Source: a virus (lineage: Duplodnaviria; Heunggongvirae; Uroviricota; Caudoviricetes). From it: 64,000 nucleotides of DNA. Position 1 is the first letter of the stretch. Each line of letters opens with the position of its first letter. Shown here piece by piece: positions 6,451 through 53,500 of the stretch. Under the pieces are notes generated by a model that had not been told where the DNA came from, ran no database searches, and saw only the letters and a list, made by a program, of their open reading frames with translations. Location: IMG/VR virus record IMGVR_UViG_3300014204_006419. One strand, given 5' to 3'. A program made the translations under genes and the position numbers.

Positions 6451-6458
6451 GAAATGAT

Positions 6459-8734: not shown

Positions 8735-8760
8735 ATTCGTTCACCTCGGTGATTATTCTC

Positions 8761-9063: not shown

Positions 9064-9072
9064 GCATTCACC

Positions 9073-10733: not shown

Positions 10734-10800
10734 TTAAATCATCCCAACGGTCATCCGTTCATGTAGTATCTCTGTACGCCAATATATTTAAACCTATCTA
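10734..10800 (-). promoter_or_regulatory. conserved promoter/5'-leader module, copy E (subfamily 2; hairpin 10746-10759)
   Basis: Minus strand: GGTTTAAATATATTGGCGTACAGAGATACTACATG-AACGG-ATGA-CCGTT-GGGATGATTTAA-ATG. Confidence 0.6.
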
Positions 10801-18610: not shown

Positions 18611-18670
18611 CATCTCAACGGTCATCCGTTCATGTAGTATTTCTATAAGCCAATATATTTAAATGTATTG
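18611..18670 (-). promoter_or_regulatory. conserved promoter/5'-leader module, copy F (subfamily 2; hairpin 18617-18630)
   Basis: AACGG-TCAT-CCGTT hairpin plus CATGTAGTAT box and an AT-rich TATA region. Confidence 0.55.
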
Positions 18671-23210: not shown

Positions 23211-23290
23211 TTAAATCAACCCCTACGAAGGTCATCCTTCGTAATGTATTCCTTATGAACCTACTACTATATAAAGGTATCGTTTAATGC
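23211..23290 (-). promoter_or_regulatory. conserved promoter/5'-leader module, copy C (TATA 23268-23275, hairpin 23224-23243)
   Basis: Stem TACGAAGG/CCTTCGTA (8 bp, compensatory relative to copies A and B), TCAT loop, GGGGTTGATTTAA-GTG. Confidence 0.6.
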
Positions 23291-23595
23291 CTATGTTTCA
23301 ACGATTGTTTATGTTGGTGATTCAAGAACGTTATGCATTGCGAAATGTACGTCATGCACCCAGAACTCCAGCGGGTATTGTTCTCTGGAAAGAAAGCGAA
23401 GCCCCTCCAACCTGCGTGCCACTTGATTATTCCAAGAAGTTCTCCGAATGCGTGAATGCTGTCTTTTCTTACGCAGTACACTGCTGTCTTTCTTTTCTTC
23501 ACCTGTTTTCCTTTGTACCAACCTTTTGTTGCTCGAACTAGGTACAGCTTGAATCCGTTGCCTCGAAGTTCTGGGTAGTGCATATTACCAGCCAT
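23284..23595 (-). CDS. basic small protein (possible nucleic-acid binding)
   Basis: 103 aa, K/R-rich. An alternative plus-strand ORF overlaps it, so strand choice follows the neighbours. Confidence 0.25.
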   Translation of the reverse strand: MAGNMHYPELRGNGFKLYLVRATKGWYKGKQVKKRKTAVYCVRKDSIHAFGELLGIIKWHAGWRGFAFFPENNTRWSSGCMTYISQCITFLNHQHKQSLKHRH

Positions 23596-27101: not shown

Positions 27102-28226
27102 TCACCTGATTACTTCTTTCAGTTCATCTTCCACTAGTGGATACTTGATTGCTTCTTCGGGCTTTTGTCCGTCTAGCATTGCGAATAGAAGTCCCTTGAA
27201 TGGATATTTGATTGCGTTCATTGCGAATTCCTTCCTGCTCTCGCGTGAGGTCTCGCTTGGTTTAATCTGTTCGAATACTTCTATTGCTTTATCCAGATAG
27301 TTCTTAATGAATGTTCTTGCCTTTTCTATCTTTACTTCTACTTCGGGGAATGCTTTCAAGAATTCAACGTCTATCTCGCAGTATGTTCCGTCTTCATACT
27401 TCTTGTTTAAGATGTAGTAGAAAATGTCCTTTACTGATAGCATCTTGATTCTCATGAGCTTCAGGTACTCTTCACTCTTGATTTTGATTCTGTTGAAGTT
27501 CTTGTCAACTACTACGAATCCTTCGAAATCCTTTGGCTGTGCTTCAAATAACTTCTTGACCTCTTCTACGTTATTTGCTTTGAACCTTCTTGGTTCTCTG
27601 AAATTCCTAAATTTCATTGGCTCGTTCCAGAGTTTGCAAAATCCAGTTTCTTCCATAGTACTTAGGTTTCTAGCACCAAGCAGTCCTATGAACTCTTCAT
27701 TATACTTAGTTACGATACGATTTTTTGCAGACACGAGTTCAAAGAATAAACAGTGTCTAAGTTTGCAGGTGTACTTCAATATCTTCAAATCATTTTCAGT
27801 CAAAAGGCTTCTGAACCATTTGTCGTACCTCTGGTCTTCTGGTGAGTTGTCATCATAGAAAGAACCTCTTGTGGTTATCTCTAATTCTCCTTGCTCATTC
27901 AAGAAAACACAGATTAGCGACCCGTCTAGCTTCTCTTGAATCTCTGCGCTCTCCCAATCTATGTTTACGGCTTCCTTCTCGTAGTGGTTGAAGAATCTGT
28001 TGAATGGATAGTTGAGAACCTTCCCGTCTTTATTCAGAACTAGACCTCTGCATTTCATAAGTACTGGGTGATTTCTTGGAACCAAAACTGCGTCATTATA
28101 GTTGTACCCGTACATGTTACCCTTGCGGGATACTTTGATATTTGACATCAGCTCTTCGCTCCACTCGGTGCATTCGTTTCCGATGAACTTCTTGAGAGGT
28201 TCGTAATCAGCTTCAGTTAACTCCAT
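27102..28226 (-). CDS. ATP-dependent RNA ligase, Rnl1 (T4 RnlA)-like nucleotidyltransferase
   Basis: 374 aa. Motif I lysine in QEKLDGSL (KxDG), placed as in T4 Rnl1 (KEDGSL). Covalent nucleotidyltransferase layout. A DNA-ligase-type function is not excluded. Confidence 0.5.
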   Translation of the reverse strand: MELTEADYEPLKKFIGNECTEWSEELMSNIKVSRKGNMYGYNYNDAVLVPRNHPVLMKCRGLVLNKDGKVLNYPFNRFFNHYEKEAVNIDWESAEIQEKLDGSLICVFLNEQGELEITTRGSFYDDNSPEDQRYDKWFRSLLTENDLKILKYTCKLRHCLFFELVSAKNRIVTKYNEEFIGLLGARNLSTMEETGFCKLWNEPMKFRNFREPRRFKANNVEEVKKLFEAQPKDFEGFVVVDKNFNRIKIKSEEYLKLMRIKMLSVKDIFYYILNKKYEDGTYCEIDVEFLKAFPEVEVKIEKARTFIKNYLDKAIEVFEQIKPSETSRESRKEFAMNAIKYPFKGLLFAMLDGQKPEEAIKYPLVEDELKEVIR

Positions 28227-28482
28227 CTTTACACCTTTGTTGAATTTTAGTTATATACTCCTCGTATGTTTCACCATTTTTTATCTTGACACCGTAGTAC
28301 TCGTCGAGTTCTCTTCTTCCCGTGTCCCATCCGATTACGAGAAGAATAAGTCCTGTGAATGAACCGATTAGTGGAAATAAACTGTTCTCGGTTAACGTTC
28401 CGAGTACCCAACCTAGTGCTACTATGGCAATCGTTAATCCTAGAATTATCTTTCCTTTCTTTATCGGCTCTGGGATGAGACT
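28213..28482 (-). CDS. small membrane protein (MSLIPEPIKKG...)
   Basis: C-terminal 89 aa of track ORF 28213..28842. The N-terminal 120 aa of that ORF overlap the previous gene in another frame and are treated as spurious. Confidence 0.35.
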   Translation of the reverse strand, partial: SLIPEPIKKGKIILGLTIAIVALGWVLGTLTENSLFPLIGSFTGLILLVIGWDTGRRELDEYYGVKIKNGETYEEYITKIQQRCKDGVN

Positions 28483-28856
28483 CATTTTCTCGCCTTGTCC
28501 ATCTGTTCGCGCATCTGCTTTCCAGCTTCTTGCAGCTTTACCCATGCGTGTGGTATGAAGTGAATTCCACCTTGTGCAATGATTACTAGACCAACTACGA
28601 TGAATCCTCCACCGTTTAGATAATCTCCGCTTGTTAGTTTTGGAATTCCCATTGCGACAATCATTGCTCCAATCAAGAAAATCATACCTTCTTGTACCAT
28701 TGGATTGACTGGTGCTTGTTGTACTCTTGGTTGGATTATTTCTGGCAGTGGTATGCAGTTTGGATACTGTGGATTGATTCTCGTGTGAACCCAATTCTGC
28801 TTGGTATCGTCGTAGTATATCTGTTCTCCGCATCTCTTGCATCTATACAGTGCCAT
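28482..28856 (-). CDS. zinc-ribbon protein with C-terminal TM segments
   Basis: 124 aa. CKRCGEQ at the N-terminus plus hydrophobic C-terminus. Confidence 0.4.
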   Translation of the reverse strand: MALYRCKRCGEQIYYDDTKQNWVHTRINPQYPNCIPLPEIIQPRVQQAPVNPMVQEGMIFLIGAMIVAMGIPKLTSGDYLNGGGFIVVGLVIIAQGGIHFIPHAWVKLQEAGKQMREQMDKARK

Positions 28857-30808: not shown

Positions 30809-30870
30809 ATCATCCAACGGACATCCGTTCATGTAGTATCTCTGTACGCCAATATATTAAAAGGTTTCGG
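30809..30870 (-). promoter_or_regulatory. conserved promoter/5'-leader module, copy G (subfamily 2; hairpin 30816-30829)
   Basis: AACGG-ACAT-CCGTT hairpin, CATGTAGTATCTCTGTACGCCAATATATT box shared with copy E. Confidence 0.55.
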
Positions 30871-36817: not shown

Positions 36818-37117
36818 TCAAATCTCTTTAAGCTTCTCTTTCATTACCCCTGCAGCGGTAACTAGCGCAATCGTAGACATCAATAGAAGTCCTGCACCCA
36901 CTAGTCCACCTAGGAAGATAGTTCCACTTGCGATAATGATTCCCATGAGAATCATCCCAAGACCTATAATTAGTGAATAAACATATGCTCTGCTTGCTGT
37001 TTGCTCTCTCTGATATTCGAGTGCTTCTGTCTTCATTTTATCTATTGAATCTTGTGTCAAGTCACCTACTGACTCGATTTTATCAATTTCACTTTCATCA
37101 GTGAACTGTTCAGCCAT
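36818..37117 (-). CDS. small membrane protein
   Basis: 99 aa, 2 TM. Downstream of leader module copy D. Confidence 0.4.
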   Translation of the reverse strand: MAEQFTDESEIDKIESVGDLTQDSIDKMKTEALEYQREQTASRAYVYSLIIGLGMILMGIIIASGTIFLGGLVGAGLLLMSTIALVTAAGVMKEKLKEI

Positions 37118-37200
37118 CTAATTCAACCCCACGAAGGACATCCTTCGTAATGTATTTCTATTTGAACACACTGTTATATAAAGCTATCGTTTAGTCGATA
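37118..37200 (-). promoter_or_regulatory. conserved promoter/5'-leader module, copy D (TATA 37175-37182, hairpin 37131-37148)
   Basis: Stem ACGAAGGA/TCCTTCGT (8 bp) with a 2-nt CA loop. GGGGTTGAATTAG-ATG. Confidence 0.55.
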
Positions 37201-37330
37201 CCTTTCGATTGTTACTAGGATATTGAATCGCTACTATTTAAACATTTCTATTTCTGAATATGTTTAGACCATTGCCGCTGATACCTTTATTAACTTCAAG
37301 GTTTATAAGAAAGGTCGGAGTTGGTAAGAA

Positions 37331-37630
37331 ATGGATGCAATTGGCGTTGTCATATCAAAGGAGAAGAAAGAGAAAACGTCTATGCTCGAAGAAAGCGAAG
37401 GCATAGAGAAAAAGACGATGTGGGTTATAATGGCTAAGGATTTGACCACGGGAATCAGAATTTCTATTATCAGTGATGAAGAGCTTGAGTATATGGTTGG
37501 AGACCATATCGAAATCAAGAAAGTTGCTGCTCAGACCAAGATTACTGTCGACCCAGGAATGGAAGTCGGTGAAGTAAAGCATATAGAAATCGAGAAGCCG
37601 AAGAAGAAGGCTTCTGAGGAAAAGAGGTGA
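37331..37630 (+). CDS. hypothetical protein
   Basis: 99 aa, plus strand, charged. Confidence 0.35.
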   Translation: MDAIGVVISKEKKEKTSMLEESEGIEKKTMWVIMAKDLTTGIRISIISDEELEYMVGDHIEIKKVAAQTKITVDPGMEVGEVKHIEIEKPKKKASEEKR

Positions 37631-37634
37631 GGAA

Positions 37635-37847
37635 ATGGTTAAATTCAAGATGTTGACGTGTGTACGTTGTGTTGATGCGCCTGGAACTCCAAGAGCTGGA
37701 CTTCCGCATCAGTGGCTACCGCGCAAGCCGCAGTTGCCTGCTACGTGCCCACAGTGCAATTCTCCGTACTGGAATCGCCCTCGCGTAAACAAGAAGAGAG
37801 CGGTTGTTGAGAAGCCAGTTGAAGCTACCGCAGAACAAAAAGTCTAG
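37635..37847 (+). CDS. small zinc-ribbon protein
   Basis: 70 aa. CVRC...CPQC. SD AAGAGGTGAGGAAATG. Followed by an oligo-T terminator. Confidence 0.4.
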   Translation: MVKFKMLTCVRCVDAPGTPRAGLPHQWLPRKPQLPATCPQCNSPYWNRPRVNKKRAVVEKPVEATAEQKV

Positions 37848-37850
37848 TTA

Positions 37851-37877
37851 TCTTTAATTTTTTATTCTTCTTATTTT
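37851..37877 (+). terminator. oligo-T (archaeal-type) terminator
   Basis: TCTTTAATTTTTTATTCTTCTTATTTT immediately after the stop codon. Confidence 0.4.
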
Positions 37878-38070
37878 GGTGTCTCTCATTGCCAGCGGTA
37901 GCGATGAAATCAATAAGACCGTAGGCTCAAGCATTCCAAATATGTACGTACATGTTGCGATTTCTTCTTGTGAATTGTAGTATATAAATGTTTCGATTTG
38001 TTTGTCTTACGTACCGTTAAGAAGCTCGTTCCTAATAAAGAGCCACAGAATACAAACATCTGGTGATTAT

Positions 38071-38217
38071 ATGGAAAATGAGGAAGAGGCGATTGTTAGA
38101 TTTGAAAAAGAATTTCCTACAGTAGCAAAATATGTTTTAAAAGAATGCAAGAACGAACCCACTATACCTAGAAATGAAGCTGCTTTTTGCACCAGTCATG
38201 AACGCACCAAGCATTAA
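38071..38217 (+). CDS. small hypothetical protein (MENEEEAIVRFEKEFP...)
   Basis: Internal Met of track ORF 38002..38217, preceded by GGTGATTAT-ATG SD context and a TATA-like box near 37977. Confidence 0.25.
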   Translation: MENEEEAIVRFEKEFPTVAKYVLKECKNEPTIPRNEAAFCTSHERTKH

Positions 38218-38389
38218 CAACAGTGGTAAACATGGAATAAGAAGAAAGATGCCAGCAGCCCTCGGTGAACTGCTGGCTTGTTGATGGGGCGGAGGGTGGT
38301 CAAACTTACTCTGCCTTTGGGGATATATTCTACCTCATTATGAAATTCGGTGCCAGCTGCGTCAAAGCACTCGTTGCTGTAAAGTTCTT

Positions 38390-38656
38390 CTAGTTCTTGA
38401 TATATTTAAAGCTTTCGATTCTTTCTTTCTCTTTTATCGCATTCTTCAGTAGCTCTGGCGTGTAGTAATATTTTTCTAGTTCTTCGTTTGTGAAGTAGTC
38501 GTGAGCTTTATCATGACATTTCAAACAAGTCCAAATCTGTTTGTTTCGCTCTTCTTCTGGAAGATTTGGATTGCGTTCCCCATTGATACGCGGGTGGAGA
38601 TGATGGCTATTGATAAGGGAATAGTGAAAGTCCTTGCCGCATAACTGACAAGTCAT
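38390..38656 (-). CDS. HNH endonuclease
   Basis: 88 aa. CQLCGK..HHLHPRINGE..N..CLKCHDKAH fits the HNH C-x2-C...H-x-H...N...C-x2-C-H..H signature. Confidence 0.55.
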   Translation of the reverse strand: MTCQLCGKDFHYSLINSHHLHPRINGERNPNLPEEERNKQIWTCLKCHDKAHDYFTNEELEKYYYTPELLKNAIKEKERIESFKYIKN

Positions 38657-38709
38657 TTCTTTAACTAGTACCTTAGTAGCCGTATCTCAAACCACCCTTT
38701 GATTATTTT

Positions 38710-43595: not shown

Positions 43596-43689
43596 TTCGT
43601 TGAAGTGTTTAACTCCATCTTGTTTCCTTCGGAGTGCCGCGAAAATTCAGACCCTCTCTTTCTATCTATTATTTTCAAGTTTCTTTTTC

Positions 43690-44250
43690 TACATATGTGA
43701 TTATAAGTATATAATTATAGATTCGCGCGGGGGTTTCTGCCCATCTCTTCCCCGTAAGCAACAATTGATTGGAATTGTTGCACTACCAAAAATGAAGATA
43801 AGGGACTTTTTTATCTGGAAAATTAAATGCACCCCCACCCTACGCACATATGGAAGCCCGTGACATGTGAGCCAGGATACTTCGGCTCGAATCTTGTTTA
43901 GAACCGCGTGGTCATGTAATCAGACTACATGACCAAACTTCTCGCGGAGCATTGCGCTGTCATGCGCTGTCAAGGATTACTGGAAGTGGGGAGTCTGTGG
44001 GTTGCGATTAAACAATTCCCCGAAACGTTTAAATACAACCGCTTCGGAATTGTTTCGCAGGAAACTGCAGAAGCAAATTGGAGTCAAAGGGGTAGCTATC
44101 ATTTGATAGCCTGGAATCGTACTGCGAAAGCAGGACGGTTCAGCCCTTCAATGGGCACAGGCAACCTTTGAACAAGCGATTAACGCTGGAACGAGGCGTT
44201 GCAACATGCCTACCAATTTGTTTCAAAATGTACCTGTAGCGCAATGGTAG
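43690..44250 (+). ncRNA. candidate structured non-coding RNA / tRNA-array leader (class unknown)
   Basis: No ORF of 60 aa or more on either strand. Locally elevated GC. Many perfect hairpins with tetraloops, including GCAACAATT-GATTGG-AATTGTTGC, TGGTCATGTA-ATCAGAC-TACATGACCA, CTGC-GAAA-GCAG, CCGC-TTCG-G and GCTATCA-TTT-GATAGC. Confidence 0.3.
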
Positions 44251-44254
44251 ATAA

Positions 44255-44337
44255 GCGAGGATTCCAGAGCGGTCAAACGGGGCGGGCTTAAGACCCGCTG
44301 TCTCAGGACTTCGCAAGTTCAAATCTTGCTCCTCGCA
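44255..44337 (+). tRNA. tRNA-Leu (anticodon UAA), type II with long variable arm
   Basis: Acceptor GCGAGGA/TCCTCGC 7/7. Anticodon loop CTTAAGA. T-arm GCAAG-TTCAAAT-CTTGC. Confidence 0.75.
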
Positions 44338-44343
44338 TAAATC

Positions 44344-44414
44344 GCGCTTGTAGTCTATTGGTAGGATGCTAGCCCTCCAAGCTGGAGAGATGGGTTCGAT
44401 TCCCATCAGGCGCA
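44344..44414 (+). tRNA. tRNA-Gly (anticodon UCC) candidate
   Basis: Acceptor GCGCTTG/CAGGCGC. Anticodon stem CTAGC/GCTGG with loop CCTCCAA (unusual C33). T-arm ATGGG-TTCGATT-CCCAT. Confidence 0.55.
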
Positions 44415-44418
44415 TAGT

Positions 44419-44503
44419 GCCTCAGTAGTTCAGCAGGAAGAACGCTTGACTGTTACACTCTGCAGAAATCAAGAAGTCACTGGTTCGAGTCCAGTCTGAG
44501 GCG
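44419..44503 (+). tRNA. tRNA-Asn (anticodon GUU) with 12-nt intron in the anticodon loop
   Basis: Acceptor GCCTCAG/CTGAGGC. D-stem GTTC/GAAC. Anticodon stem CTTGA/TCAAG enclosing 19 nt (7-nt loop CTGTTAx + 12-nt insert). T-arm ACTGG-TTCGAGT-CCAGT. Confidence 0.7.
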
Positions 44504-44508
44504 TAAAT

Positions 44509-44590
44509 GCGAGGGTGCTGGAGCGGTCTAACAGGACGGGCTTAGAACCCGTTGCTCTAGGGCTTCGCAGGTTCGAATCCTGCCTCTCGC
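44509..44590 (+). tRNA. tRNA-Leu (anticodon UAG), type II
   Basis: Acceptor GCGAGGG/CTCTCGC (one GU pair). Anticodon loop CTTAGAA. Long variable arm. T-arm GCAGG-TTCGAAT-CCTGC. Confidence 0.7.
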
Positions 44591-44597
44591 ATTGTAT

Positions 44598-44670
44598 GGG
44601 ATTGTCGGCTAACCTGTCAGGCTCCGCGATTTGGAATCGCGTGATGTCAGTTCAAATCTGACCATTCCCA
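44598..44670 (+). tRNA. tRNA-like, probable tRNA-Pro (anticodon UGG) with irregular D-arm
   Basis: 73 nt. Acceptor GGGATTG/CATTCCC (one mismatch). Anticodon stem CGCGA/TCGCG with loop TTTGGAA. T-arm GTCAG-TTCAAAT-CTGAC. The D-arm pairing is imperfect. Confidence 0.45.
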
Positions 44671-44672
44671 TC

Positions 44673-44745
44673 GCATCCATAGTCGAATGGTTAAGATACT
44701 GCTTTTACAAAGCAGTGACTGCAGGTTCGATTCCTGCTGGGTGCA
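44673..44745 (+). tRNA. tRNA-Val (anticodon UAC)
   Basis: Acceptor GCATCCA/TGGGTGC. Anticodon stem CTGCT/AGCAG, loop TTTACAA. T-arm GCAGG-TTCGATT-CCTGC. Confidence 0.7.
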
Positions 44746-44750: not shown

Positions 44751-44933
44751 GTGAATTGTTTGCGGAATAAAACACTGAAAGAGAAATGTGCTTATTGTGG
44801 AACCAAGATGATTACCAACGATAATTCTCCAGTCATGTGGTGCCCTGTTTGTGTTGGTATGGGGATTGACCGTGGACTTTGTGTTTTCAGAAAGGACTCG
44901 GACGATAACATGGATATAGTTGGAGTTGATTGA
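44751..44933 (+). CDS. small zinc-ribbon protein (GTG start), 60 aa
   Basis: Part of track ORF 44631..44933 that does not overlap tRNAs. CAYCGT...CPVC. A GTG start right after tRNA-Val is assumed, since the genome shows other GTG starts. Confidence 0.3.
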
Positions 44934-45900
44934 AATGGTGGAAACTAAACAAAAGACGGCTTTGATAACAGGGATAACTGGGCAGGATGGTTCGTATCTA
45001 GCAGAGTTTCTTCTTGATAAAGGATACAAAGTTTGTGGATTGATGAGACGCTCTAGTTCAGACAATACTACTAGAATTGAACACATTCTTTCTAAAATTA
45101 GTATCTACTACGGAGATTTGAGTGATGCGAATTCTATTGCGAGCGTGGTCAAGGAAGTCCAGCCAGATGAACTTTATCACCTTGGAGCGCAGAGCTTTGT
45201 CAAGTCCAGCTTTGATACTCCAGAATACACTGGGGACATTACAGGTCTTGGTACAACTAGAGTTCTTGAAGCAATTAGGAGATACTCTCCAAAGACTAGA
45301 TTCTATAATGCAGCGTCTAGTGAGATGTTTGGGAAAGTTGTTGAAACTCCTCAGAATGAGAGTACTCCATTTTATCCGCGCAGTCCGTATGGAGTTGCAA
45401 AGCTCTATGCGTACTGGATGACTAAGAATTATCGTGAGAGTTATGGATTATTCGCTTGCAGTGGGATAATGTTCAACCATACTTCTCCTCGTCGTGGTTC
45501 TGAATTCGTGACAAAGAAAGTTGTTGAAACTGTAGCTAAGATAAAGAATGGTGAACAGAAAGAGTTGTTCCTTGGAAATCTTGATTCTAAACGTGATTGG
45601 GGATTTGCTGGGGATTACGTTCGCGCAATGTGGCTCATGCTTCAGCAGGATGTCTCGGATGATTATGTTGTTTCTTCTGGAGAGACTCACTCTATTCGTG
45701 AACTTTGTGAAGTTGCATTCAGTCGCGTTGGTTTGAATTGGCAAGACTATGTTCGTGTAGACCCTAAGTTCTTCCGCCCTGCAGAGGTTGAATTGCTAAT
45801 TGGGGATTCAACTAAGGCTAAGACTGTACTAGGGTGGAAACCTACTGTTGACTTCAAAGGACTCGTCAATATGATGGTCGATGAGGAGATGGTAAAATGA
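44920..45900 (+). CDS. gmd: GDP-mannose 4,6-dehydratase
   Basis: 326 aa. N-terminal [20 protein letters not shown] Rossmann motif. SDR-type YxxxK (YGVAKLY). Overall Gmd layout ([21 protein letters not shown]). Confidence 0.85.
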
Positions 45901-46592
45901 GCGATGAGATTAAGGCGATTACTGAATTAGAAGCGATACTCCCGCAGGAATTCAAGCAGAAGAAGAAACCGATTCCATATCCACTAGGTATGCGTGAGAC
46001 TCTTGCAAAAGCAGATGAACTCTCGCGTGAGGAATTCAAGATATTTTATTATCTCTCTTATCTGACTGGTGCCAGAGCTACTGAAGCACTTCGAACAAAG
46101 GGAAAAGATTTCAGTGTCAATGAACATGACAATGCGATGATTGTTCAGCTTCAGACCGAGAAGAATCGTCGTGAACCTCTTCGCAATATTCCAATTCCGC
46201 TTTATGGCACTGAAGAGACTGCAGCAAATAAAGTTCTTGATTATGTCCAATCAATCGGAGAGAATGAGCATTTGTTCAACTTCAATCGTATCACAGCATG
46301 GCGTGCTCTTGGTTCGATTCAGATAAATACTCGCGCAATATTCTTAGCCCCTGAGAAGAAAGTTGATGACTATTCTTTTCCGCTGTTTCCTCATTTTCTA
46401 CGCCATTCGCGTTTGACACATCTTGTAGTTGATTATGGTTATGATGCTTCTAGATTGAAAGCGTTTGCTGGATGGAGTTCGCTTTATCCTGCAACTTATT
46501 ATGTTCATCTCTCATGGAAGAACCTGCTTGCCCCAATTAGGTCGGCTTCTATGACACAACCAGTACAGAATTTTGTAAAACAGGAGGGATAA
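45897..46592 (+). CDS. tyrosine recombinase / integrase
   Basis: 231 aa. [10 protein letters not shown] (box I Arg), [12 protein letters not shown] (box II H-x-x-R...H), C-terminal ...YYVHL catalytic Tyr region. ATGA overlap with the gmd stop. Confidence 0.65.
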
Positions 46593-46593: not shown

Positions 46594-46854
46594 ATGGTGC
46601 ATATATGCAAAGTATGTAAGCAAGCGTTGAAAGAAGGGGACACATGTAGGATACATTTGATGTCTCATTTGCCAGATGTATTCTTTGTCGCATCTCCAGT
46701 AGTTCACTGGGAAAAAGGCATTATTGAAGGAAAGTATCGTCTTATTTGCAAGATATGCAATGAGGAAGTAAAGAATGAGTCTCCTATAGACCATTTGAGA
46801 ACAAAGCACACTGCAGATGAGTTCTATACCGAGTACAAGCCAATGGATTGGTGA
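46594..46854 (+). CDS. small C2H2-like zinc-finger protein
   Basis: 86 aa. CKVCKQ...H...H and CKICNEEV...H..H. Confidence 0.4.
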   Translation: MVHICKVCKQALKEGDTCRIHLMSHLPDVFFVASPVVHWEKGIIEGKYRLICKICNEEVKNESPIDHLRTKHTADEFYTEYKPMDW

Positions 46855-47027: not shown

Positions 47028-47312
47028 GTGGGTCAAGGGAATTTTTGGGGTGAAGAAATGAACTTTGTGATGCAGTTTTGGCTTGAACATCGCTTTACGA
47101 TTGCGATTGTGTTTGTCGCAATCTGTGCAATATTTATGGCGTGTACACTAATCTATGATTCAGTCCAATATACTAACGCCGTAAATCAGTGCAAAGCGAT
47201 GTACACAAATCAGCAACAAGAATTCTGTGATGCACACAATGGCACTATGTCAAATGGAGTATGCAGCGTACCATTCAATACAACTTTGGTATTCCCATCA
47301 TCCGTTCGATAG
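47028..47312 (+). CDS. small TM + Cys-rich protein (likely start at MNFVMQFW, 47048)
   Basis: 94 aa. TM helix, then a Cys-rich tail. Confidence 0.3.
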   Translation: MGQGNFWGEEMNFVMQFWLEHRFTIAIVFVAICAIFMACTLIYDSVQYTNAVNQCKAMYTNQQQEFCDAHNGTMSNGVCSVPFNTTLVFPSSVR

Positions 47313-47574
47313 TTTCTCTTGGTTTTCTTCCAGGTCTGCGGCTCTTTCTGTTTTTCTTTATTTCATCTGCGATTTCTTTAACAAGTTGCTTCTTTATCCT
47401 AGACATGTTTGGACTCTTTGCGATTAGATATGAAACGTCAGTCATATTGATTAGATTCATTTCTTTTGCATCTTCTTCGGTATCTCGGACTACCATTTCT
47501 GCTTCTTCCTTGATGTCATCAAGCATTCTAGAAAACTCTGCGGAAACCCTTTTTATTATGGATTCTTCATTCAT
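47275..47574 (-). CDS. hypothetical charged protein downstream of the giant gene
   Basis: 99 aa. ATGA overlap with the giant ORF's stop. Confidence 0.35.
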   Translation of the reverse strand: MNEESIIKRVSAEFSRMLDDIKEEAEMVVRDTEEDAKEMNLINMTDVSYLIAKSPNMSRIKKQLVKEIADEIKKNRKSRRPGRKPRETIERMMGIPKLY

Positions 47575-50500
47575 TTTCGTCCCTCGTTCAAAAGATAGTC
47601 GTCATTAACTTCTTTTCCGTTGGTAGAAAGTGCAATCATCGTCTTTGTTGACCTGCGTGTGAGCTTGTATCCGATGTAAATCACGATTAACAAGATGAAT
47701 ACTGCGAACACATAGATTCCAATGTCGATAAGTCCCGAAGTTGCGCTCGGCACTTTTGTAAATGTGTAATTTGTGAATGTTTGGTTACCTACTACTGTAG
47801 TTACCGATGAATTCATTACCATATCTCCTTGAGCTAAACTCATCCCAGCTATGCTCATTGCCAGGAATAGCCAGATTATTGCGAAGAAGAAACATGCATA
47901 CTGGATGAATGGATTAATTCTAAGTTTGAAGCCAGCTAGCGCGAATAATCCAGATGCAAATAGCAAAACTAGAACACCTATAATCGCCATAGGCGTTCCT
48001 GCGTTGTAAATTACTAGTCCTCCACCACTCGATGGTGTTGTTGGCTTTGTTGGGTCATAGGATAGGACGTACACTATATTGTTCGTGGAATTCAATAGTT
48101 GTTGGTTGTTGATTATTATCCTTCCTCCAACTTTCGTGTAATTTGGTACGATACTCCAGTCTACATAATTGTCTATGTCGCAGCTAGCATTATTGCAGTA
48201 GTAGAGCAATTCTGACTGACAATTTACGCAGGTATCATTTATGTTTCCAGTGAAGTTCTCTGTTATTCCATATGAATTGTTGAATTTTACTTCGTAGTTG
48301 AAAGGATATGGGAATACGTGTGGCATTGAATAGGTCACATTAGATGCAGTAACTGGAGTGGAGAACGATACATTGATTACAGAATCTCCATTCGCAGCAA
48401 TTGGGTGTAATCCTGAGCAGTTTGCAATACAAATTGCTCCTGGACTGCTCCAATTCAGATAGATTGCAGTGAAATTTATGGATGCATTATTTGTTATAAT
48501 TTCTGGGCTTATCCCGTAGTAGTTCACCGATAATTCGTTTAGGTTCGTATTAGGATTTTGCGCAGTCGTATCTGGGATAAATTCGCTTAATGAATCACCA
48601 GAACCATTTTCGCTTGCACTCTTTGTTTCGATTCCAGAAAAGTTGAATTCTCCACTTGCATTTGTGCAGATGAACTGTGTTGGGCAGGTACCAAAATCGG
48701 ATTCGTTGTAAGTGATATTGTTTAGTACAATTGCGTTATTCCATGTAGCATTCAGTTGAGAAATTATAAACTGAATTGTTAGGTCGGATTGACTTGCATT
48801 TGTAACTACGTCTTGAATCCATCCAGTTTTAACTACGTTCAATGCACTTGCGTTTATTCCTTCTAGCAAACTCTTTGTCTCTGCAGTACTGAAATCTACT
48901 GTTCCATTAAATAGGCAGGTGAATCCGTTCGGACAGGTATCGTAATCCGCTTGTGTATACGCTACGTTGCTGAGTGGAATATCGTTGCCCCAGGTTGCGT
49001 TTATTTGCTCTTGTAAGTATTGCTGCGTTAGTGTAGAAGTTATTGAATTGTTTTGCATCCAGCCAGTTCTGCTTACGCTTATGTTGTCTCCAGAGATTCC
49101 GCTGAAAATCTGGTTTGTTCCACTTTCATCCCAGCTAGTTGTTCTCGTCCATGAGCATACGAATCCATCTGGGCAAGTTGAGAAATCTGATTGAGTGTAC
49201 TGTACGGTTATTGGGAATGATTGACTCCAAGTTGCATTTATATTTTCTTTTAGATACTGAGTTGAGAAAGTACTTATTGCGCTAGTATTCTGAATCCATC
49301 CACCTTGTACTATGCTTATCGAATCTCCATTTGTGCCTTGTGTTTTTATGTCTGTTGAATTGAATTGTAGCAGTGCAGTGCTCTGATTGGTGAATGTACA
49401 AGCCCATCCGCTTATACATGCTGCGGTTGCACTTACGTTTGAATAGTTCAATGAGGATGGGTTTGTGAGTGCGCAGTTTCTTTCTGCATATTGCATTGAG
49501 AATGTGGAAGTTGCTGAATCATTTTGAATCCATCCGTTATTTGATGAACAATTGTAGGTTGGTGTACTCATATTGAAATTAATCGAATAGTTGTCATTAT
49601 TGCATGACCAGGCAACCCAGTCAGTTCCGTTTGATATTTCTTGCGCATTCGAAGTCGAATTTATTACTTCTAAGTCAATCCTATCTGTAGGTAGATAGGT
49701 GTAATTGCAGATTCCAGTTCCAGTTACGTTTGCTCTAATGCTGAATGATACGTTATAACCCACAGTAGCGTTTGTTTGTTGAATTATATTTCCATATTTC
49801 TCTTCTCTGAACATCATGTTCTGGTACTGCGTGGTTTCATTATTTCCTACATTATCATCTGAGAAATATCTTATGTATTGTAATCCATCTTTATCTATTT
49901 TGATTACTCCAGTGTAGTTAGTTGTTGGAGTGCAACTATTTGAAGTATCCAGACAATACTTGGTGATGTTGCATCCACTGCCAGAATCGGAGCAAGTTAA
50001 AGTGATGTTCACATATGGGCTGCTAGTCCAAGTTCCGAATGTGTACGATGCACTTGTATTTGTGATTGCAGTTGCGTTTGTTACGGGTGCTAATGATTCA
50101 TTCGCATATGCAACTGTGGAATTGTTTCCAAATGCATCGAAATTAAGCGTTCCAGAAGTATTGTAGCAAGTATATCCTACTGGGCAAGTGTCGAAATCAG
50201 ATGGATTAAACTGCACGGCGTTCATTGAGGTATTAACTCCCCAAGTTAGGTTCATTTGCTCGGTCTTATTCCCTAGACCAATCCAACCACTTAATGTCTT
50301 TGTGAGACTGTTTCCAGTTATTCCTTCTGTGAATGATTTTGACTCTTCTCCAGTGAAGTTTGTTGTTCTGGTGAAAGAGCAAATAAATCCAATTGGGCAG
50401 GTCGAGAAATCTGCTTGCGTATATTGAACGTTATCTAAAGCCCAGGTCAATTCCCAGGTTGCATTCGTTGTTTCTTGCAAGAATTGGTTGGTTACGTTGC

Positions 50501-53500
50501 TTGTAGCAGAGATATTCTGAATCCAAGTTCCTTTGGTTAGATTAATTGAATTTCCAGATGCTGATGCCCACGTTGAATTGCTTCCAAGTGAAGTGAAATT
50601 CATGGTTCCTGATGTATCTGTGCAACTCCATCCTGATGGGCAAGTGTCAAAATCTGATTGGGAATAGCTAATTTCAATTAATTGAATTGATATGTTGTTT
50701 GAGATATTCAATTGTTCCTTTCCGTATTGTATACTGAAGGTACTTGTCGGTGTTGCATTCTGCATCCATCCTGAAAGTGATTTTGTAAGTGCGTTTCCAC
50801 TTATCTGCACGATTGTTGAATTCGTTCCTGATGCAGATAGGTTCATGATTCCAGTCAAAGTTCCTGTGAATCCTATAGGTTCTGCTGGGAAATCATTACT
50901 TGAATACGAAACATTTGAGAATGGAATATTTGCTGCGTTACTGATTGATAGATTACTCATTAGATATTGGATACTTGTTGTTGAAGATGCTGATACATTC
51001 TGTGCCCAATCGGTTGCTCCACAAGTTAGAGCATTTCCAGAAACTCCTTCGGTTATATTGTTATCCCCATTGCTGATTGTTGCAGTGTGTGAGAAAGTGC
51101 CTGAGAATCCTATTGGTTGAGTTGCAAAATCGGTTTGTGTGTAGCTAACTCCTGTCAATATTATCGCATTGCCCCATGCCACTGTATCATTAGCATATAT
51201 TGATTGGATTGAACAATTCGTTGTAGCACTAGTATTCTGTGTCCATGCTCCTTTGGTTACAGTGATATTGTTTCCACTGATTCCCTTTGTAATATTGTTT
51301 GTTCCTGAATCAGTCCATGAAGTATTTTCTGTCCATGAGCACACAAATCCATTAGGACATGTATCAAAATCACTTTCTGTGTATTGCACGTTCATTGGGA
51401 AATTGTTACCCCAAGTCGCGTTTATTGTGTCCTGCAAGTATTGCATCGAGAATGTGGAAGTTGCTGAATCATTTTGAATCCATCCGTTCTTTACTATTGA
51501 GATGTTGTTTCCACTGAGTGCCCAGTTGCTTGAATTGCTGCCCAATGCTGAAATGTTCAAACTTCCACTGTGTGTTCCAGAGAATCCGTTTGGTAAAGCA
51601 TTGTAATCGGTTTCTGAGTAAGCGATGTTCTGCCAGGTAAAGTTTGAAGTATCTATTATGCTAAGAGTGCTGTTTATGTACTGAGTCGTGAATGTTGAAG
51701 TCTGTGAATTGTCTTGCGCCCAGTCTGCTGCAGAGCAGGTTAATCCACTTCCGCTTGTTGTCTTGTTTATACTCGTTGTTGTTGATGGTGAAAGTAGCAG
51801 TATTCCGCCTTCTGGCTTTGCGAATCCAGTTGGAGCAGTTGGAAAATCTGATTGGTAGTATGTTAGGTTAAGTGATGTTGTTCCGCCCCAAGCAACGCTC
51901 AGTGTATCGTAGAGATACTGTGTCGTGCAATTGCTTGTTTGATTGATGTCTTGATAGTAATTGCTGAATGTGCAAGTTGCATTGCTTCCAGATGCATATT
52001 CTTGGAGTTGGATTGTTCCATTTTCTGCGAAGGATAGATTCCCGCTTATGCTTGCGGATATTCCATCGGGTAGTGCATTAAAGTCAGTTCCAGAATAATT
52101 TACGTTGATTGGAATTGTTCCGTTATAGGTTACGTTGTTCGTTGCGAATAAATATTGTGATGTACAGTTGCTTGTGTTTGTATTATCCTGAATCCAATCT
52201 CCTTTAACATTGACTATACTTGAACTATTTGCTCCAGCAGTAGTTGAATTGCTGCTTGTTGCTTGTATATCCAAGGTTCCAGAGGTTCCTGTTGTTGTCC
52301 ATCCTGCGGGTGTAGCTGCAAAATCATCTGCTACAAACGAAAATCCTGTCAGCGGGAATGCGTTGCCCCACGTGAAGTTACTTGTAGCTTGTGCATACTG
52401 AATACTGAAGTTACTAATCGCGCTGACATTTTGTATCCATGCACCTTTTGTTACGGTTATATTATTTCCAGATGCTCCTCTTGTGCTTGTGTTAGTACCA
52501 AGAGGTGTGAAATTGAATGTTCCAGACCAGAAGCAAATGAATCCGTTAGGGCACGTATCATAATTATCTTGTGTGTATTCTACGTTACTTAGAGAGAATG
52601 ACTGATTCCAACTTGCATTTAATTGCTCTTGTCCATATTGGATTGAAGATGTGCTAGTCGCGCTTGTATTCTGCATCCATCCACTCTTGGATAGTGTTAT
52701 ACTGTTTCCAGATGCTCCCGCTGTTGTAGAATTTGAATTGCTTGCTGCGATATTAATAGTTCCTGTCTCTCCTGTTGCTACCCATCCAAAAGGAGTAGTT
52801 GTGAAATCCCCTTCTGCATATTCAAATCCAGTAAGTGGGAAGTTATTACCCCAAACGAAAGTGCTAGTTGATTGTCCGTATTGTGTTGATAACGTAGATG
52901 TTGCGGATGCATTCTGTTGCCAAGCGTCCTTGGTTACGGTAATGTTATTACCCGAACTTCCTCTTGTACTAGTATTTGTTCCTAACCCAGTAAAGTTGAA
53001 TGTATCCGACCATGAACAGGTGAATCCGTTCGGACAGGTATCGTAATCTGCTTGCGAATATGCTACGTTGCTAAGCGTAAAGGATTGATTCCATGAAGCG
53101 TTAAGCTGCTCCTGCGCGTATTGTATGCTAGATGTAGAAGTTGCTGAGATGTTCTGTATCCAACCACTTAACGTCTTTGTGATTGAACTTCCATTTGCGC
53201 TTGAAGTTGTGGAATTATTTCCGTTAGCTTGAATGTTCAACGTTCCCGAAGTTTCTGAACAAGTCCATGAATCAGGACAAGTGCTGAAATCTTCGCTATT
53301 GAATGATACTCCAGTTAGATTTATCGAATTGCCCCAGTAGAAGGTAGATGTTGCCTGTGCATATTGCATTGCTAGTGTGCTGGTCGCGTTCGTATTTTGG
53401 ATGTAACTATCTTTGCTGACTGTTATGTTATTTCCGCTTATTTCCTTCCAAGTCTGTGTGGTTTCTCCTGCACTTATGTTTGTTGTATCTGTCCATGAAC

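What the first reader, a model, noticed from the sequence alone, without database searches (positions are those of the whole stretch)
44255..44745. Tight six-tRNA array with 2-7-nt spacers, including an intron-containing tRNA
Six tRNA genes sit within 491 bp, separated by only 2-7 nt: Leu-UAA, Gly-UCC, Asn-GUU, Leu-UAG, a probable Pro-UGG and Val-UAC.

Such head-to-tail arrays are unusual for small archaeal genomes, where tRNAs are mostly dispersed. They are typical of virus- or mobile-element-borne tRNA arrays, or of a single polycistronic precursor.

The array is bordered upstream by a highly structured non-coding region. Downstream it is followed by gmd overlapping a tyrosine recombinase. 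Together these mark a recombination or integration hotspot.

Two members are atypical: Gly has C33 in its anticodon loop, and the Pro candidate has an irregular D-arm. They may be pseudo- or variant tRNAs.
Basis: seen in the sequence. Interest (0 to 1): 0.6.

Follow-up and report, generated by a model that had tools for sequence, protein, structure and literature searches.

The report
Six-tRNA operon on archaeal mobile element
Six real tRNA genes, one with a short archaeal-type intron, sit head to tail as a single operon on a large, mostly unknown-gene virus- or plasmid-like element of uncultivated archaea; this extends a known habit of big viruses to a new archaeal lineage and is not a new kind of system.

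Summary
Six tRNA genes lie on the + strand at 44255-44745: Leu-UAA, Gly-UCC, Asn-GUU, Leu-UAG, Pro-UGG and Val-UAC. They score 46-70 bits in Rfam, are separated by 2-6 nt, and are the only tRNAs in about 105 kb read from a 114.7-kb metagenome contig.

The third gene has a 12-nt insertion at position 37/38. It folds into a relaxed archaeal splice motif (hBH/BHL), and splicing there gives Asn-GUU. ARAGORN's Stop-UUA and Tyr-GUA calls do not fit that geometry or the G1-C72/G73 acceptor end. C33 in tRNA-Gly and the degenerate D-arm of tRNA-Pro are real.

The setting is not a small archaeal chromosome. About 95% of genes share one strand, most are ORFans, no housekeeping genes were found, and promoter cassettes are repeated. 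The element encodes a T4 Rnl1-type RNA ligase, Ro60, MazG and archaeal-type SAM synthetase and AglB.

A BRE/TATA element matching the element's own promoters lies 227 nt upstream. It is followed by a strongly structured 197-nt leader, the tRNAs, a Zn-ribbon ORF, gmd and a short tyrosine recombinase. No T-run terminator occurs before 47042.

All five four-box/Leu tRNAs carry U34, matching the element's preferred A-ending codons. The best reading is an auxiliary tRNA operon of an archaeal virus-like element. An integration hotspot is not supported.

The parts
44021..44035 (+). Archaeal BRE/TATA-like promoter (cgaaacg-TTTAAATA) for the tRNA operon. The predicted transcription start is near 44058-44062.
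   Evidence: TTTAWATA occurs 15 times in the window. Twelve of these lie in the 13.7% of sequence that is non-coding (binomial P = 1.3e-8). They are preceded by CGAAA/CGATA and oriented with genes. This is the only intergenic + strand copy. The start site is inferred from the usual archaeal TATA-to-start distance.
44058..44254 (+). Structured 5' leader of about 197 nt. A multi-branch domain is closed by a 12-bp helix (44070-44081 with 44213-44224) and includes a GAAA-tetraloop hairpin. Its function is unknown.
   Evidence: MFE -72.4 kcal/mol, z = -5.1, 0 of 200 shuffles as stable. No Rfam family at E <= 1. No tRNA with ARAGORN in intron mode. No similarity to the Ro60-adjacent RNA candidate.
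44255..44337 (+). tRNA-Leu(UAA), type II with a long variable arm, A73, and one D-stem mismatch.
   Evidence: (46.5 bits).
44344..44414 (+). tRNA-Gly(UCC) with C33 (base 44375) in place of the near-universal U33. It has A73, the archaeal/eukaryal type of discriminator.
   Evidence: (60.2 bits). The anticodon loop CCUCCAA was read directly from the sequence.
44419..44503 (+). Intron-containing tRNA-Asn(GUU), with G1-C72 and G73.
   Evidence: Rfam 60.7 bits with an insertion after position 37. The MFE structure is a cloverleaf with an hBH splice motif. ARAGORN's Stop-UUA and Tyr-GUA calls were rejected on BHB geometry and acceptor identity.
44456..44467 (+). 12-nt intron (cacucugcagaa) at the canonical 37/38 position. 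Intron GCAG pairs with C32-U35 to form a 4-bp helix. The 3' bulge is a-a-A38. The 5' site lies in an 8-nt loop, so the motif is the relaxed hBH/BHL type.
   Evidence: frequency of the MFE structure in the ensemble 0.62. Motif definitions and enzyme specificities are from PMC3239211. A DPANN tRNA-Asn has the same design.
44509..44591 (+). tRNA-Leu(UAG), type II. It is 79% identical to Leu-UAA, against 43-64% for all other pairs, so the two are a likely duplicate pair.
   Evidence: (57.4 bits).
44598..44670 (+). tRNA-Pro(UGG) with G1-C72 and A73, a U5:U68 mismatch, a D-stem with two G:U pairs and a D-loop without GG.
   Evidence: (51.3 bits).
44673..44745 (+). tRNA-Val(UAC), the most canonical member.
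   Evidence: 70.2 bits.
44751..44933 (+). Small Zn-ribbon ORF with CxxC...CPxC. It is 60 aa from a GTG start; the gene caller chose ATG 44808, giving 41 aa. It starts 6 nt after tRNA-Val.
   Evidence: Translation; gene call; no significant Pfam hit.
44935..45900 (+). GDP-mannose 4,6-dehydratase (gmd).
   Evidence: PF16363, E = 9e-135; gene call of 321 aa.
45897..46592 (+). Short tyrosine recombinase (231 aa, catalytic domain only). The catalytic motifs LTGAR, HFLRH, GW and Y are visible.
   Evidence: PF00589, 32.3 bits; phrog_1. Sequence. Only 11 homologues, at 35% identity or less.
46594..46854 (+). 86-aa ORF, the last gene of the + strand unit.
   Evidence: Gene call; no significant Pfam hit.
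47042..47046 (+). First run of five or more T on the + strand downstream of the promoter; candidate archaeal terminator.
   Evidence: no T5 run on the + strand between 43900 and 47041.
27102..28226 (-). T4 Rnl1-type RNA ligase, 16 kb from the array. It is possibly linked in function (tRNA repair or exon ligation), but this is not shown.
   Evidence: PF09511, E = 7e-19. (PDB 2C5U, T4 Rnl1, E = 5e-12 over residues 28-338). (homologues in 1403 phage records).

Best explanation
The array is an auxiliary tRNA operon of a large (at least 115 kb), ORFan-rich virus-like or plasmid-like element of uncultivated mesophilic archaea, probably a TACK or DPANN host.

Proposed mechanism:
1. Host RNA polymerase starts at an element-type BRE/TATA promoter (44021-44035). 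It makes one precursor: a structured leader of about 197 nt, six tRNAs separated by 2-6 nt, and probably the downstream Zn-ribbon, gmd, recombinase and 86-aa mRNAs.
2. Host RNase P and RNase Z cut out the tRNAs, and host CCA-adding enzyme completes them, since no CCA is encoded.
3. The 12-nt intron of pre-tRNA-Asn is removed at a relaxed hBH motif by a broad-specificity splicing endonuclease, of the (alpha-beta)2 or epsilon2 type.
4. The exons are joined by host RtcB or possibly by the element's own Rnl1-type ligase.
5. The mature tRNAs raise the supply of decoders for the element's dominant codons: GGA, CCA, GUA, CUA and UUA/G through five U34 tRNAs, and AAU/AAC for the Asn-rich giant proteins.

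Shown here: the genes, the promoter motif class, the fold, the codon match and the element context. Inferred: co-transcription, processing, splicing, function and host.
For: - The tRNAs are real and clustered. No other tRNA or Rfam family was found in the rest of the window or in the flanking contig sequence L002/L003.
- The contig is 114,686 bp, with nearly all genes on one strand.
- No ribosomal, RNA polymerase, aaRS or replication genes were found, and most genes have no Pfam or PHROG hit.
- Phage-like auxiliary genes are present: T4 Rnl1-type ligase, Ro60/TROVE, MazG, two radical-SAM enzymes, a PRTase, an HD protein and LPD29.
- Promoter-plus-leader cassettes are repeated.
- Archaeal affiliation: PF01941 SAM synthetase at only 54-55% identity to Bathyarchaeia/Thermoproteota/DPANN proteins, an AglB/STT3-like protein, and BRE/TATA promoters.
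- The intron forms an hBH motif at 37/38 in the MFE structure. Relaxed motifs need (alpha-beta)2 or epsilon2 endonucleases (PMC3239211).
- Codon match: RSCU is 2.42 for GGA, 2.48 for CCA, 1.76 for GTA and 1.31 for CTA. GGA, AAT and AAC are the 2nd, 4th and 6th most used codons. Asn makes up 11.4% of the giant ORFs. The six tRNAs read 21-27% of codons.
- All five four-box/Leu tRNAs have U34 (chance about 0.006).
- One promoter, and no T5 run until 47042.
- Precedent: haloarchaeal virus HGTV-1 has 34-36 tRNA genes, one with an intron, plus RNA ligases (PMC13532342; PMC8651126).
Against: - No capsid, portal, terminase or plasmid replication gene was identified, so the element type is unproven. 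About 10 kb of the contig (record positions 1-11,196) was not read at all, and about 24 kb (90,718-114,686) could not be read.
- No relatives were found, so nothing could be tested by conservation or covariation.
- The host is unknown, so no comparison of host codon usage or host tRNAs was possible.
- The top codons GCA, GAA, ACA, AAA and AGA have no element tRNA, so the match to demand is partial.
- The preference for A-ending codons reflects a DNA-strand bias at silent sites that is the same for genes of both orientations. It is therefore mutational in origin, and the operon's own protein genes prefer T-ending codons.
- C33 and the degenerate Pro D-arm could mean that some members are weak or inactive.
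Confidence: 0.6

Rival explanations
1. The array is an ordinary cellular tRNA operon. On this reading the contig is part of a small archaeal (for example DPANN) chromosome or a genomic island in it, and the array holds the cell's own essential copies of these isoacceptors.
For: - DPANN genomes are ORFan-rich, encode giant surface proteins and carry intron-rich tRNAs.
- A DPANN MAG (GW2011_AR18) has a tRNA-Asn with the same anticodon arm and the same 37/38 intron design.
- ARMAN tRNA-Pro also has a degenerate D-arm (PMC3239211).
- SAM synthetase, AglB, gmd, LemA, TPM and SPFH are cell-type genes.
- The SAM synthetase is as close to DPANN proteins as to Bathyarchaeia proteins.
- No viral hallmark gene was found.
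Against: - About 105 kb with more than 100 genes contains no informational or housekeeping gene.
- About 95% of genes are co-oriented.
- Promoter cassettes are repeated.
- Rnl1 ligase, Ro60, LPD29 and MazG are typical of phages and mobile elements.
- The cell-type genes are only about 55% identical to any cellular homologue.
- Sole essential tRNAs would not be expected to carry C33, a U:U acceptor mismatch and a D-loop without GG.
Confidence: 0.13
2. The array is a counter-defence set. On this reading the tRNAs are mainly replacements that resist, or outlast, host tRNA-cleaving defences. Anticodon-loop variants such as C33 in tRNA-Gly would escape anticodon nucleases. The set would work together with the Rnl1-type tRNA repair ligase and Ro60. 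This can coexist with the codon-supply explanation.
For: - C33 lies in the anticodon loop of tRNA-Gly.
- The element encodes a full-length homologue of T4 Rnl1, the ligase that repairs nuclease-cut tRNA anticodon loops, and Ro60.
- Phage tRNAs carrying anticodon-loop mutations are proposed to evade anticodon nucleases (PMC10264068).
Against: - Only one of the six tRNAs has an unusual anticodon loop.
- No polynucleotide kinase/phosphatase partner for the ligase was identified; the 209-aa neighbour has no hit.
- No archaeal anticodon-nuclease defence is linked to this host.
- There are no host tRNAs to compare with.
- The ligase is 16 kb from the array and Ro60 about 49 kb.
Confidence: 0.15
3. 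The array is an integration module. On this reading one of the tRNA genes (for example Val, the closest to the recombinase) is the attP site. It would match a host tRNA gene, so that the adjacent tyrosine recombinase inserts the element into the host chromosome and rebuilds the tRNA.
For: - A tyrosine recombinase with an intact catalytic set lies 1.15 kb downstream in the same unit.
- Archaeal viruses and jumbo elements integrate at tRNA genes by means of tyrosine integrases (PMC4090602; PMC13444090; PMC8651126).
Against: - An att site needs one partial tRNA match, not six complete genes with a promoter.
- No duplicate of any tRNA segment longer than 13 nt occurs in the sequence read.
- The recombinase is minimal (231 aa). 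Its few distant relatives sit in contigs of about 23 kb without tRNAs. It could equally be a dimer resolvase.
Confidence: 0.06
4. The array complements a deficient host. On this reading the element supplies isoacceptors that the host genome lacks, creating mutual dependence, as reported for a Methanoperedens plasmid.
For: [quoted passage not shown]
Against: U34 tRNAs and Asn-GUU belong to the minimal decoding set that every archaeon needs to read NNA codons and Asn codons (established knowledge). A host lacking all six is therefore implausible.
Confidence: 0.04

Closest known systems
tRNA gene set of the haloarchaeal myovirus HGTV-1 (Hagravirus capitaneum) and other archaeal tailed viruses
   Same: Archaeal virus-borne tRNA genes, one of them with an intron, together with virus-encoded RNA ligases thought to act in tRNA splicing or repair (PMC13532342; PMC8651126).
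   Different: HGTV-1 is a GC-rich halovirus with 34-36 tRNAs covering nearly all amino acids and with Rnl2/RtcB-type ligases. Here there are only six tRNAs in one tight operon. The ligase is T4 Rnl1-type, the element has 40% GC, it is not related to HGTV-1 by sequence, and no capsid genes were seen.
tRNA clusters of large bacteriophages (T4, T5, cluster C1 mycobacteriophages)
   Same: Head-to-tail arrays with very short spacers, a match to phage-preferred codons, non-canonical members, and co-occurrence with an Rnl1 repair ligase (as in T4). Both codon compensation and evasion of anticodon nucleases have been proposed as functions (PMC10264068).
   Different: Bacterial tRNAs lack protein-spliced BHB introns. 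Here the promoter is archaeal BRE/TATA, the acceptor ends of Gly (A73) and Pro (G1-C72, A73) are of the archaeal/eukaryal type, and there is a 37/38 BHB-type intron.
Chlorovirus (PBCV-1, CVK2) tRNA clusters
   Same: From memory, not tested here: a polycistronic tRNA cluster in a large DNA virus, with some members carrying short introns at 37/38 that the host's protein enzymes splice.
   Different: The host is eukaryotic and the virus is an NCLDV. There is no sequence relationship.
tRNAs on Methanoperedens plasmid HMp_v5
   Same: tRNA genes carried on a large archaeal extrachromosomal element (PMC9674854).
   Different: Those are three tRNAs whose anticodons the host lacks. The present set consists of core U34/G34 decoders that any host must already have.
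Multi-intron tRNA-Asn(GUU) of the DPANN archaeon GW2011_AR18
   Same: Same anticodon stem, same GUU loop, same variable region and G73. The intron at 37/38 uses the same GCAG:C32-U35 helix and a 3-nt 3' bulge.
   Different: It is a cellular gene in a genome of 28% GC, with two further insertions in the D- and T-loops and different acceptor, D- and T-stems. Part of the match was imposed by the search pattern.

Membership tests
tRNA (Rfam RF00005) | Cloverleaf sequence and structure scoring above the curated gathering score of 29 bits | tested here: met
   All six score 46.5-70.2 bits. ARAGORN finds the same six.
Archaeal/eukaryal protein-spliced (BHB) tRNA intron | Insertion at the canonical 37/38 position of the anticodon loop | tested here: met
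   The Rfam alignment places the insertion after position 37. The MFE fold places the splice sites two nucleotides 3' of a 4-bp helix on each strand, giving intron 44456-44467.
Archaeal/eukaryal protein-spliced (BHB) tRNA intron | Strict 3-4-3 hBHBh' motif, meaning two 3-nt bulges around a 4-bp helix plus an inner helix | tested here: not met
   Only the 3' bulge and the 4-bp helix form. The 5' site lies in an 8-nt loop, and a 12-nt intron cannot form an inner helix. This is the relaxed hBH/BHL class, which (alpha-beta)2 and epsilon2 endonucleases accept (PMC3239211).
Archaeal/eukaryal protein-spliced (BHB) tRNA intron | Actual excision by a splicing endonuclease followed by exon ligation | not testable with these tools
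   This needs RNA-seq or an in vitro splicing assay. No endonuclease gene was found on the element.
tRNA-Asn, as opposed to Tyr or a suppressor | Anticodon GUU after splicing, with discriminator G73. Archaeal tRNA-Tyr would have C1-G72 and A73 (established identity rules). | tested here: met
   Sites predicted by BHB geometry give the loop CUGUUAA. The gene has G1-C72 and G73. ARAGORN's Tyr-GUA would require cuts at the very ends of the helix, and Stop-UUA ignores the intron.
Virus-encoded tRNA cluster | Carried on a viral genome, shown by capsid, portal or terminase genes or other hallmarks | tested here: inconclusive
   No hallmark gene by Pfam or PHROGs in about 105 kb. About 10 kb of the contig was not read. 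Phage-typical Rnl1, Ro60, MazG and LPD29 genes and the promoter cassettes are suggestive only.
Virus-encoded tRNA cluster | tRNAs clustered on one strand and matching codons favoured by the element | tested here: met
   Six tRNAs in 491 bp on one strand. Five of five have U34, matching the A-ending codon preference, and Asn codons are abundant. Several of the top codons are not covered.
Virus-encoded tRNA cluster | Difference from the host's tRNA pool or codon usage | not testable with these tools
   The host is unknown. No relatives or proviruses were found.
tRNA-targeting integration module (attP plus integrase) | Tyrosine recombinase with its catalytic residues | tested here: met
   PF00589 at 32.3 bits against a cut-off of 27.1. 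R, HxxR, W and Y motifs are visible in the sequence.
tRNA-targeting integration module (attP plus integrase) | att-type duplication of a tRNA segment, or junctions with host sequence | tested here: not met
   The longest match of any array segment elsewhere in the window, L002 or L003 is 13 nt. Host junctions could not be searched.
Cellular archaeal chromosome | Universal housekeeping genes interspersed, and mixed gene orientation | tested here: not met
   No such genes in more than 100 examined. About 95% of genes are co-oriented.

The most novel reading that the evidence does not exclude
The contig is a first view of a large (at least 115 kb) virus or extrachromosomal element of uncultivated TACK or DPANN archaea. 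It would carry its own tRNA-maintenance toolkit:
- a spliceable six-tRNA operon released from a structured leader RNA
- a T4 Rnl1-type tRNA ligase
- Ro60 with an adjacent Y-RNA-like gene

On this reading the C33 tRNA-Gly is a variant that resists anticodon nucleases. That would make it the archaeal counterpart of the phage contest with hosts over tRNA cleavage.
Probability: 0.15. Interest if true: 0.7.

Novelty: new member of a known kind. Interest (0 to 1): 0.4.

Why it matters
tRNA genes on archaeal viruses have so far been studied essentially in haloarchaeal tailed viruses. This locus shows the same strategy in an unrelated, largely unknown-gene element of non-halophilic archaea.

It also adds two practical leads. 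First, a relaxed splice motif that only (alpha-beta)2 or epsilon2 endonucleases should cut narrows the candidate hosts to TACK or DPANN-type archaea. Second, tRNAs, an Rnl1-type ligase and Ro60 on one element hint at tRNA repair or counter-defence in archaea, which has not been explored.

The case is also a caution for annotation. Default tools gave three different identities for the same intron-bearing tRNA: Stop, Tyr and Asn.

Tried and rejected
1. ARAGORN's 'tRNA-Stop(UUA)' and 'tRNA-Tyr(GUA) with intron' were rejected. The first ignores the intron. The second needs cuts at the very ends of the helix, against BHB geometry, and clashes with G1-C72/G73.
2. Searches for relatives led nowhere:
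   - recombinase and the 190-aa neighbour in IMG/VR: none
   - homologues of the recombinase: only 35% identity or less, in tRNA-free contigs of about 23 kb
   - ATPase/HTH protein: no homologue at all
   - the array against annotated phages and archaeal viruses: only a 35-nt match to tRNA-Asn
3. The C33 tRNA-Gly anticodon arm gave two IMG/VR matches, both chance hits in non-tRNA sequence.
4. The Asn anticodon-arm-plus-intron pattern, scanned in genomes and metagenomes, gave 12 matches. Only the DPANN AR18 locus and its metagenome twin are tRNAs, and their 28% GC rules them out as the host.
5. A hidden or multi-intron tRNA, or a known RNA family, in the upstream region: none by Rfam at E <= 1 or by ARAGORN in intron mode.
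6. A replication origin at the cumulative GC-skew minimum (43-44 kb) was rejected. The skew change tracks the composition of the giant ORF. The silent-site strand bias does not flip across the array.
7. A foreign origin for the + strand island, suggested by its different codon usage, was rejected. Fourfold-degenerate sites have the same composition as the rest once expressed on the same DNA strand.
8. The leader as a Y RNA related to the Ro60-adjacent candidate: no meaningful similarity.
9. Homology between the Zot-like ATPase near the array and the one next to the distant recombinases is negligible (19% identity, E = 0.006 for the single comparison).
10. No independent sequence of the array was obtained. 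A second contig of 10-20 kb carries identical SAM synthetase and recombinase proteins with the same neighbours, but its DNA is not shown.
Full report
**1. Observation**

ARAGORN and Rfam's tRNA model at its gathering threshold agree on six + strand tRNA genes:
- Leu-UAA, 44255-44337, 46.5 bits
- Gly-UCC, 44344-44414, 60.2 bits
- a third gene, 44419-44503, 60.7 bits
- Leu-UAG, 44509-44591, 57.4 bits
- Pro-UGG, 44598-44670, 51.3 bits
- Val-UAC, 44673-44745, 70.2 bits

The spacers are TAAATC, TAGT, TAAAT, TTGTAT and TC. No CCA is encoded. These are the only tRNAs, and the only Rfam families, in the window. None occurs in the further contig sequence I could read. The array is real and far beyond chance.

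**2. The third tRNA**

Three tool settings gave three identities: Stop-UUA, Tyr-GUA with a 12-nt intron, and Rfam's alignment with a 12-13-nt insertion after position 37, which implies Asn-GUU.

The precursor's minimum-free-energy structure has an ensemble frequency of 0.62. It is a clean cloverleaf whose anticodon arm continues as follows:
- the 5-bp anticodon stem
- a 3-nt bulge (a, a, A38) on the 3' side
- a 4-bp helix between C32-U35 and the intron bases GCAG
- an 8-nt loop

In the archaeal bulge-helix-bulge motif both cuts fall two nucleotides 3' of the 4-bp helix. That gives A37|c and a|A38, so the intron is 44456-44467 (cacucugcagaa) and the mature loop is CUGUUAA, which is Asn-GUU.

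The Tyr reading would need cuts at the very ends of the helix. It also conflicts with G1-C72 and G73, because archaeal tRNA-Tyr has C1-G72 and A73 whereas tRNA-Asn has G73 (established identity rules).

A 12-nt intron cannot form the inner helix of a strict hBHBh' motif, so this is the relaxed hBH/BHL class. According to PMC3239211, alpha4 and alpha2 endonucleases need the strict motif, while the (alpha-beta)2 enzymes (Crenarchaeota, Thaumarchaeota, Nanoarchaeota) and the epsilon2 enzyme (ARMAN) also cut relaxed ones.

A scan of 185,579 species genomes and of JGI metagenomes used this anticodon arm with any 8-30-nt insertion. It found one true tRNA: the tRNA-Asn of the DPANN archaeon GW2011_AR18 and its metagenome twin. 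That gene has the same GCAG helix and 3-nt bulge, plus further insertions in the D- and T-loops. Its 28% GC shows it is not the host, but the intron design is a natural archaeal one.

**3. Atypical members**

- tRNA-Gly has the loop CCUCCAA, so base 44375 is C33 where U33 is nearly universal.
- tRNA-Pro has a U5:U68 mismatch, a D-stem with two G:U pairs and a D-loop without GG.
- Leu-UAA has one D-stem mismatch.

All still score well above threshold. Gly A73 and Pro G1-C72/A73 are archaeal/eukaryal-type acceptor ends (established knowledge). The two Leu genes are 79% identical, against 43-64% for other pairs, which suggests duplication with an anticodon change. tRNA GC content is 47-61%, which suggests a non-hyperthermophilic host.

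**4. Context**

The window is positions 17896-81895 (reversed) of ENA ERZ27247350 contig k141_2421657, which is 114,686 bp long. A further 8.8 kb and 6.7 kb beyond the two window ends were read.

Nearly all genes lie on one strand. Most have no Pfam or PHROG match.

The identifiable genes are:
- an archaeal-type SAM synthetase and an AglB/STT3-like protein
- gmd and a second epimerase
- glycosyltransferases and two radical-SAM enzymes
- MazG, a nucleotidyltransferase and a PRTase
- LemA, TPM and SPFH proteins
- LPD29 and an HD protein
- Ro60/TROVE
- a full-length homologue of T4 RNA ligase 1
- giant ORFs of 3771, 2618 and 1051 aa

No ribosomal, polymerase, aaRS or replication gene was found, and no capsid or terminase gene either.

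The SAM synthetase is only 54-55% identical to its best cellular homologues, which are mostly Bathyarchaeia with some DPANN. The recombinase has 11 distant homologues. A neighbouring ATPase/HTH protein has none. No relative exists in IMG/VR or among annotated phages.

TTTAWATA motifs preceded by CGAAA/CGATA are concentrated in intergenic DNA (12 of 15; P = 1.3e-8) and are oriented with the genes. Two families of near-identical promoter-plus-leader cassettes recur across the window.

Together this points to a large archaeal virus-like or plasmid-like element and not to a small chromosome. The element type itself remains unproven.

**5. The transcription unit**

The only intergenic + strand BRE/TATA element (cgaaacg-TTTAAATA, 44021-44035) points at the array.

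The 197 nt between the predicted start and the first tRNA fold very stably, at z = -5.1. They match no Rfam family.

No run of five or more T occurs on the + strand until 47042. The leader, six tRNAs, a Zn-ribbon ORF starting 6 nt after tRNA-Val, gmd, the recombinase (with a 4-nt overlap) and an 86-aa ORF therefore look like one unit of about 3 kb. This is inferred from sequence, not shown.

**6. Function**

Genes on the majority strand strongly prefer A-ending codons. RSCU is 2.42 for GGA, 2.48 for CCA and 1.76 for GTA, and CTA is the top CTN codon. All five four-box/Leu tRNAs carry U34, which has a chance of about 0.006.

GGA, AAT and AAC are the 2nd, 4th and 6th most used codons. Asn makes up 11.4% of the giant ORFs. 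The six tRNAs read 21-27% of all codons.

The match is only partial, because GCA, GAA, ACA and AGA have no element tRNA.

There is also a caveat on its origin. Fourfold-degenerate sites have the same composition on the + DNA strand (T 0.43-0.58, A 0.21-0.28) in genes of both orientations and on both sides of the array. The codon bias is therefore a strand-wide mutational bias. The tRNAs fit its consequence for the roughly 95% of genes on that strand.

The same result rejects two ideas I had considered: that the + strand island is compositionally foreign, and that the cumulative GC-skew minimum at 43-44 kb marks a bidirectional origin.

**7. Rival explanations**

- A cellular tRNA operon (DPANN-like chromosome or island) is weakened by the gene content, the gene orientation, the promoter cassettes, the phage-type genes and the non-canonical tRNAs. 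It cannot be excluded without the host or the full contig.
- A counter-defence role is attractive. It would involve nuclease-resistant tRNA variants together with Rnl1 and Ro60, and has phage precedent (PMC10264068). It rests on a single C33 and on unlinked genes.
- An attP role for a tRNA next to the recombinase has precedent in archaeal elements. It has no support here, because no att-like repeat longer than 13 nt was found.
- Complementation of tRNAs missing from the host, as in plasmid HMp_v5, is unlikely for core U34/G34 decoders.

**8. Comparison and novelty**

The closest known case is the haloarchaeal virus HGTV-1, with 34-36 tRNA genes (one with an intron) and virus-encoded RNA ligases. 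Phage tRNA clusters are the functional analogue.

The present locus is a new member of that kind in an unrelated, non-halophilic archaeal element. Its noteworthy details are:
- the relaxed BHB intron, which constrains the host
- C33 in tRNA-Gly
- a long structured leader
- co-transcription with protein genes
- an Rnl1-type ligase and Ro60 elsewhere on the element

It is of moderate interest and is not a new kind of system.

Noticed in passing
L002 15600-15906 (+), same contig, outside the window; just upstream of the Ro60 gene at L002 15907-17469: The element encodes Ro60 (TROVE E = 3e-38, plus the Ro60 vWA domain). The 300-nt gap before the gene holds a TATA-like element and a structured RNA candidate (147 nt, z = -4.3). 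It has a long terminal stem around a branched core with a canonical T-arm (UUUGG-UUCGACU-CCAAA), which is the architecture of YrlA-type Y RNAs. Rfam gives only a weak tmRNA-like hit (E = 0.027). This is a possible Ro60/Y-RNA pair on an archaeal element.
   Followed up: partly
window 27102-28226 (-), with the overlapping 209-aa ORF at 28213-28842 (-): Full-length homologue of T4 RNA ligase 1 (PF09511; PDB 2C5U, E = 5e-12; 25-30% identical to ligases in about 1400 phage genomes). This is unusual for an archaeal element. The overlapping upstream ORF has no detectable family and could be an end-healing partner.
   Followed up: partly
window 1635-1712, 6374-6452, 23213-23298, 37120-37198 (family A); 10740-10797, 18611-18668, 30810-30867 (family B); all on the - strand: Two families of near-identical cassettes of 58-80 nt, each with a promoter (BRE/TATA) and a 5' leader containing a hairpin, are repeated across the element. 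They look like virus-style temporal promoter classes.
   Followed up: partly
whole window; fourfold-degenerate codon positions: There is a strong, uniform DNA-strand bias at silent sites (T 0.43-0.58 against A 0.21-0.28 on the + strand). It is independent of gene orientation and position, with no flip anywhere in 64 kb. This suggests one-directional or strand-displacement replication across the window.
   Followed up: partly
window 37100-38700: An ORF-poor stretch of 1.6 kb carries four BRE/TATA motifs on the - strand (37182, 37242, 37988, 38410) and only short ORFs on either strand. No Rfam family matches at E <= 1. It may encode small proteins or unknown RNAs.
   Followed up: partly
window 47571-58886 (-), 60701-63856 (-); L003 2143-9999: Giant ORFs of 3771 and 1051 aa in the window, the latter continuing into the 2618-aa gene called in L003. 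They are rich in Thr, Ser and Asn. The largest has internal repeats of about 240 nt (80 aa). None has a Pfam or PHROG match. They are probably surface or adhesin-like proteins.
   Followed up: no
window 43596-44020: The non-coding stretch between the divergent promoters has an AT-rich segment (about 43650-43720). It also has several perfect hairpins (43758-43781, 43909-43935), a tandem TGCGCTGTCA x2 (43953-43972) and a repeated GGAATTGTT/AACAATTCC motif (43771, 44011, 44046). It may be a protein-binding or regulatory region. Function unknown.
   Followed up: partly
L013 3120-3250 (-) and L021 1005-1135 (+): The tRNA-Asn(GUU) of the DPANN archaeon GW2011_AR18 carries three insertions (D-loop, 37/38 and T-loop). 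Both ARAGORN and Rfam's tRNA model miss it at their default thresholds.
   Followed up: partly
L006, L007, L008 (contigs of about 23 kb from ENA, JGI and Logan samples): The distant short recombinase homologues sit in contigs of small ORFs with a Zot-like ATPase and a Rad25-type helicase. These are likely small archaeal viruses or plasmids, and they carry no tRNAs.
   Followed up: no
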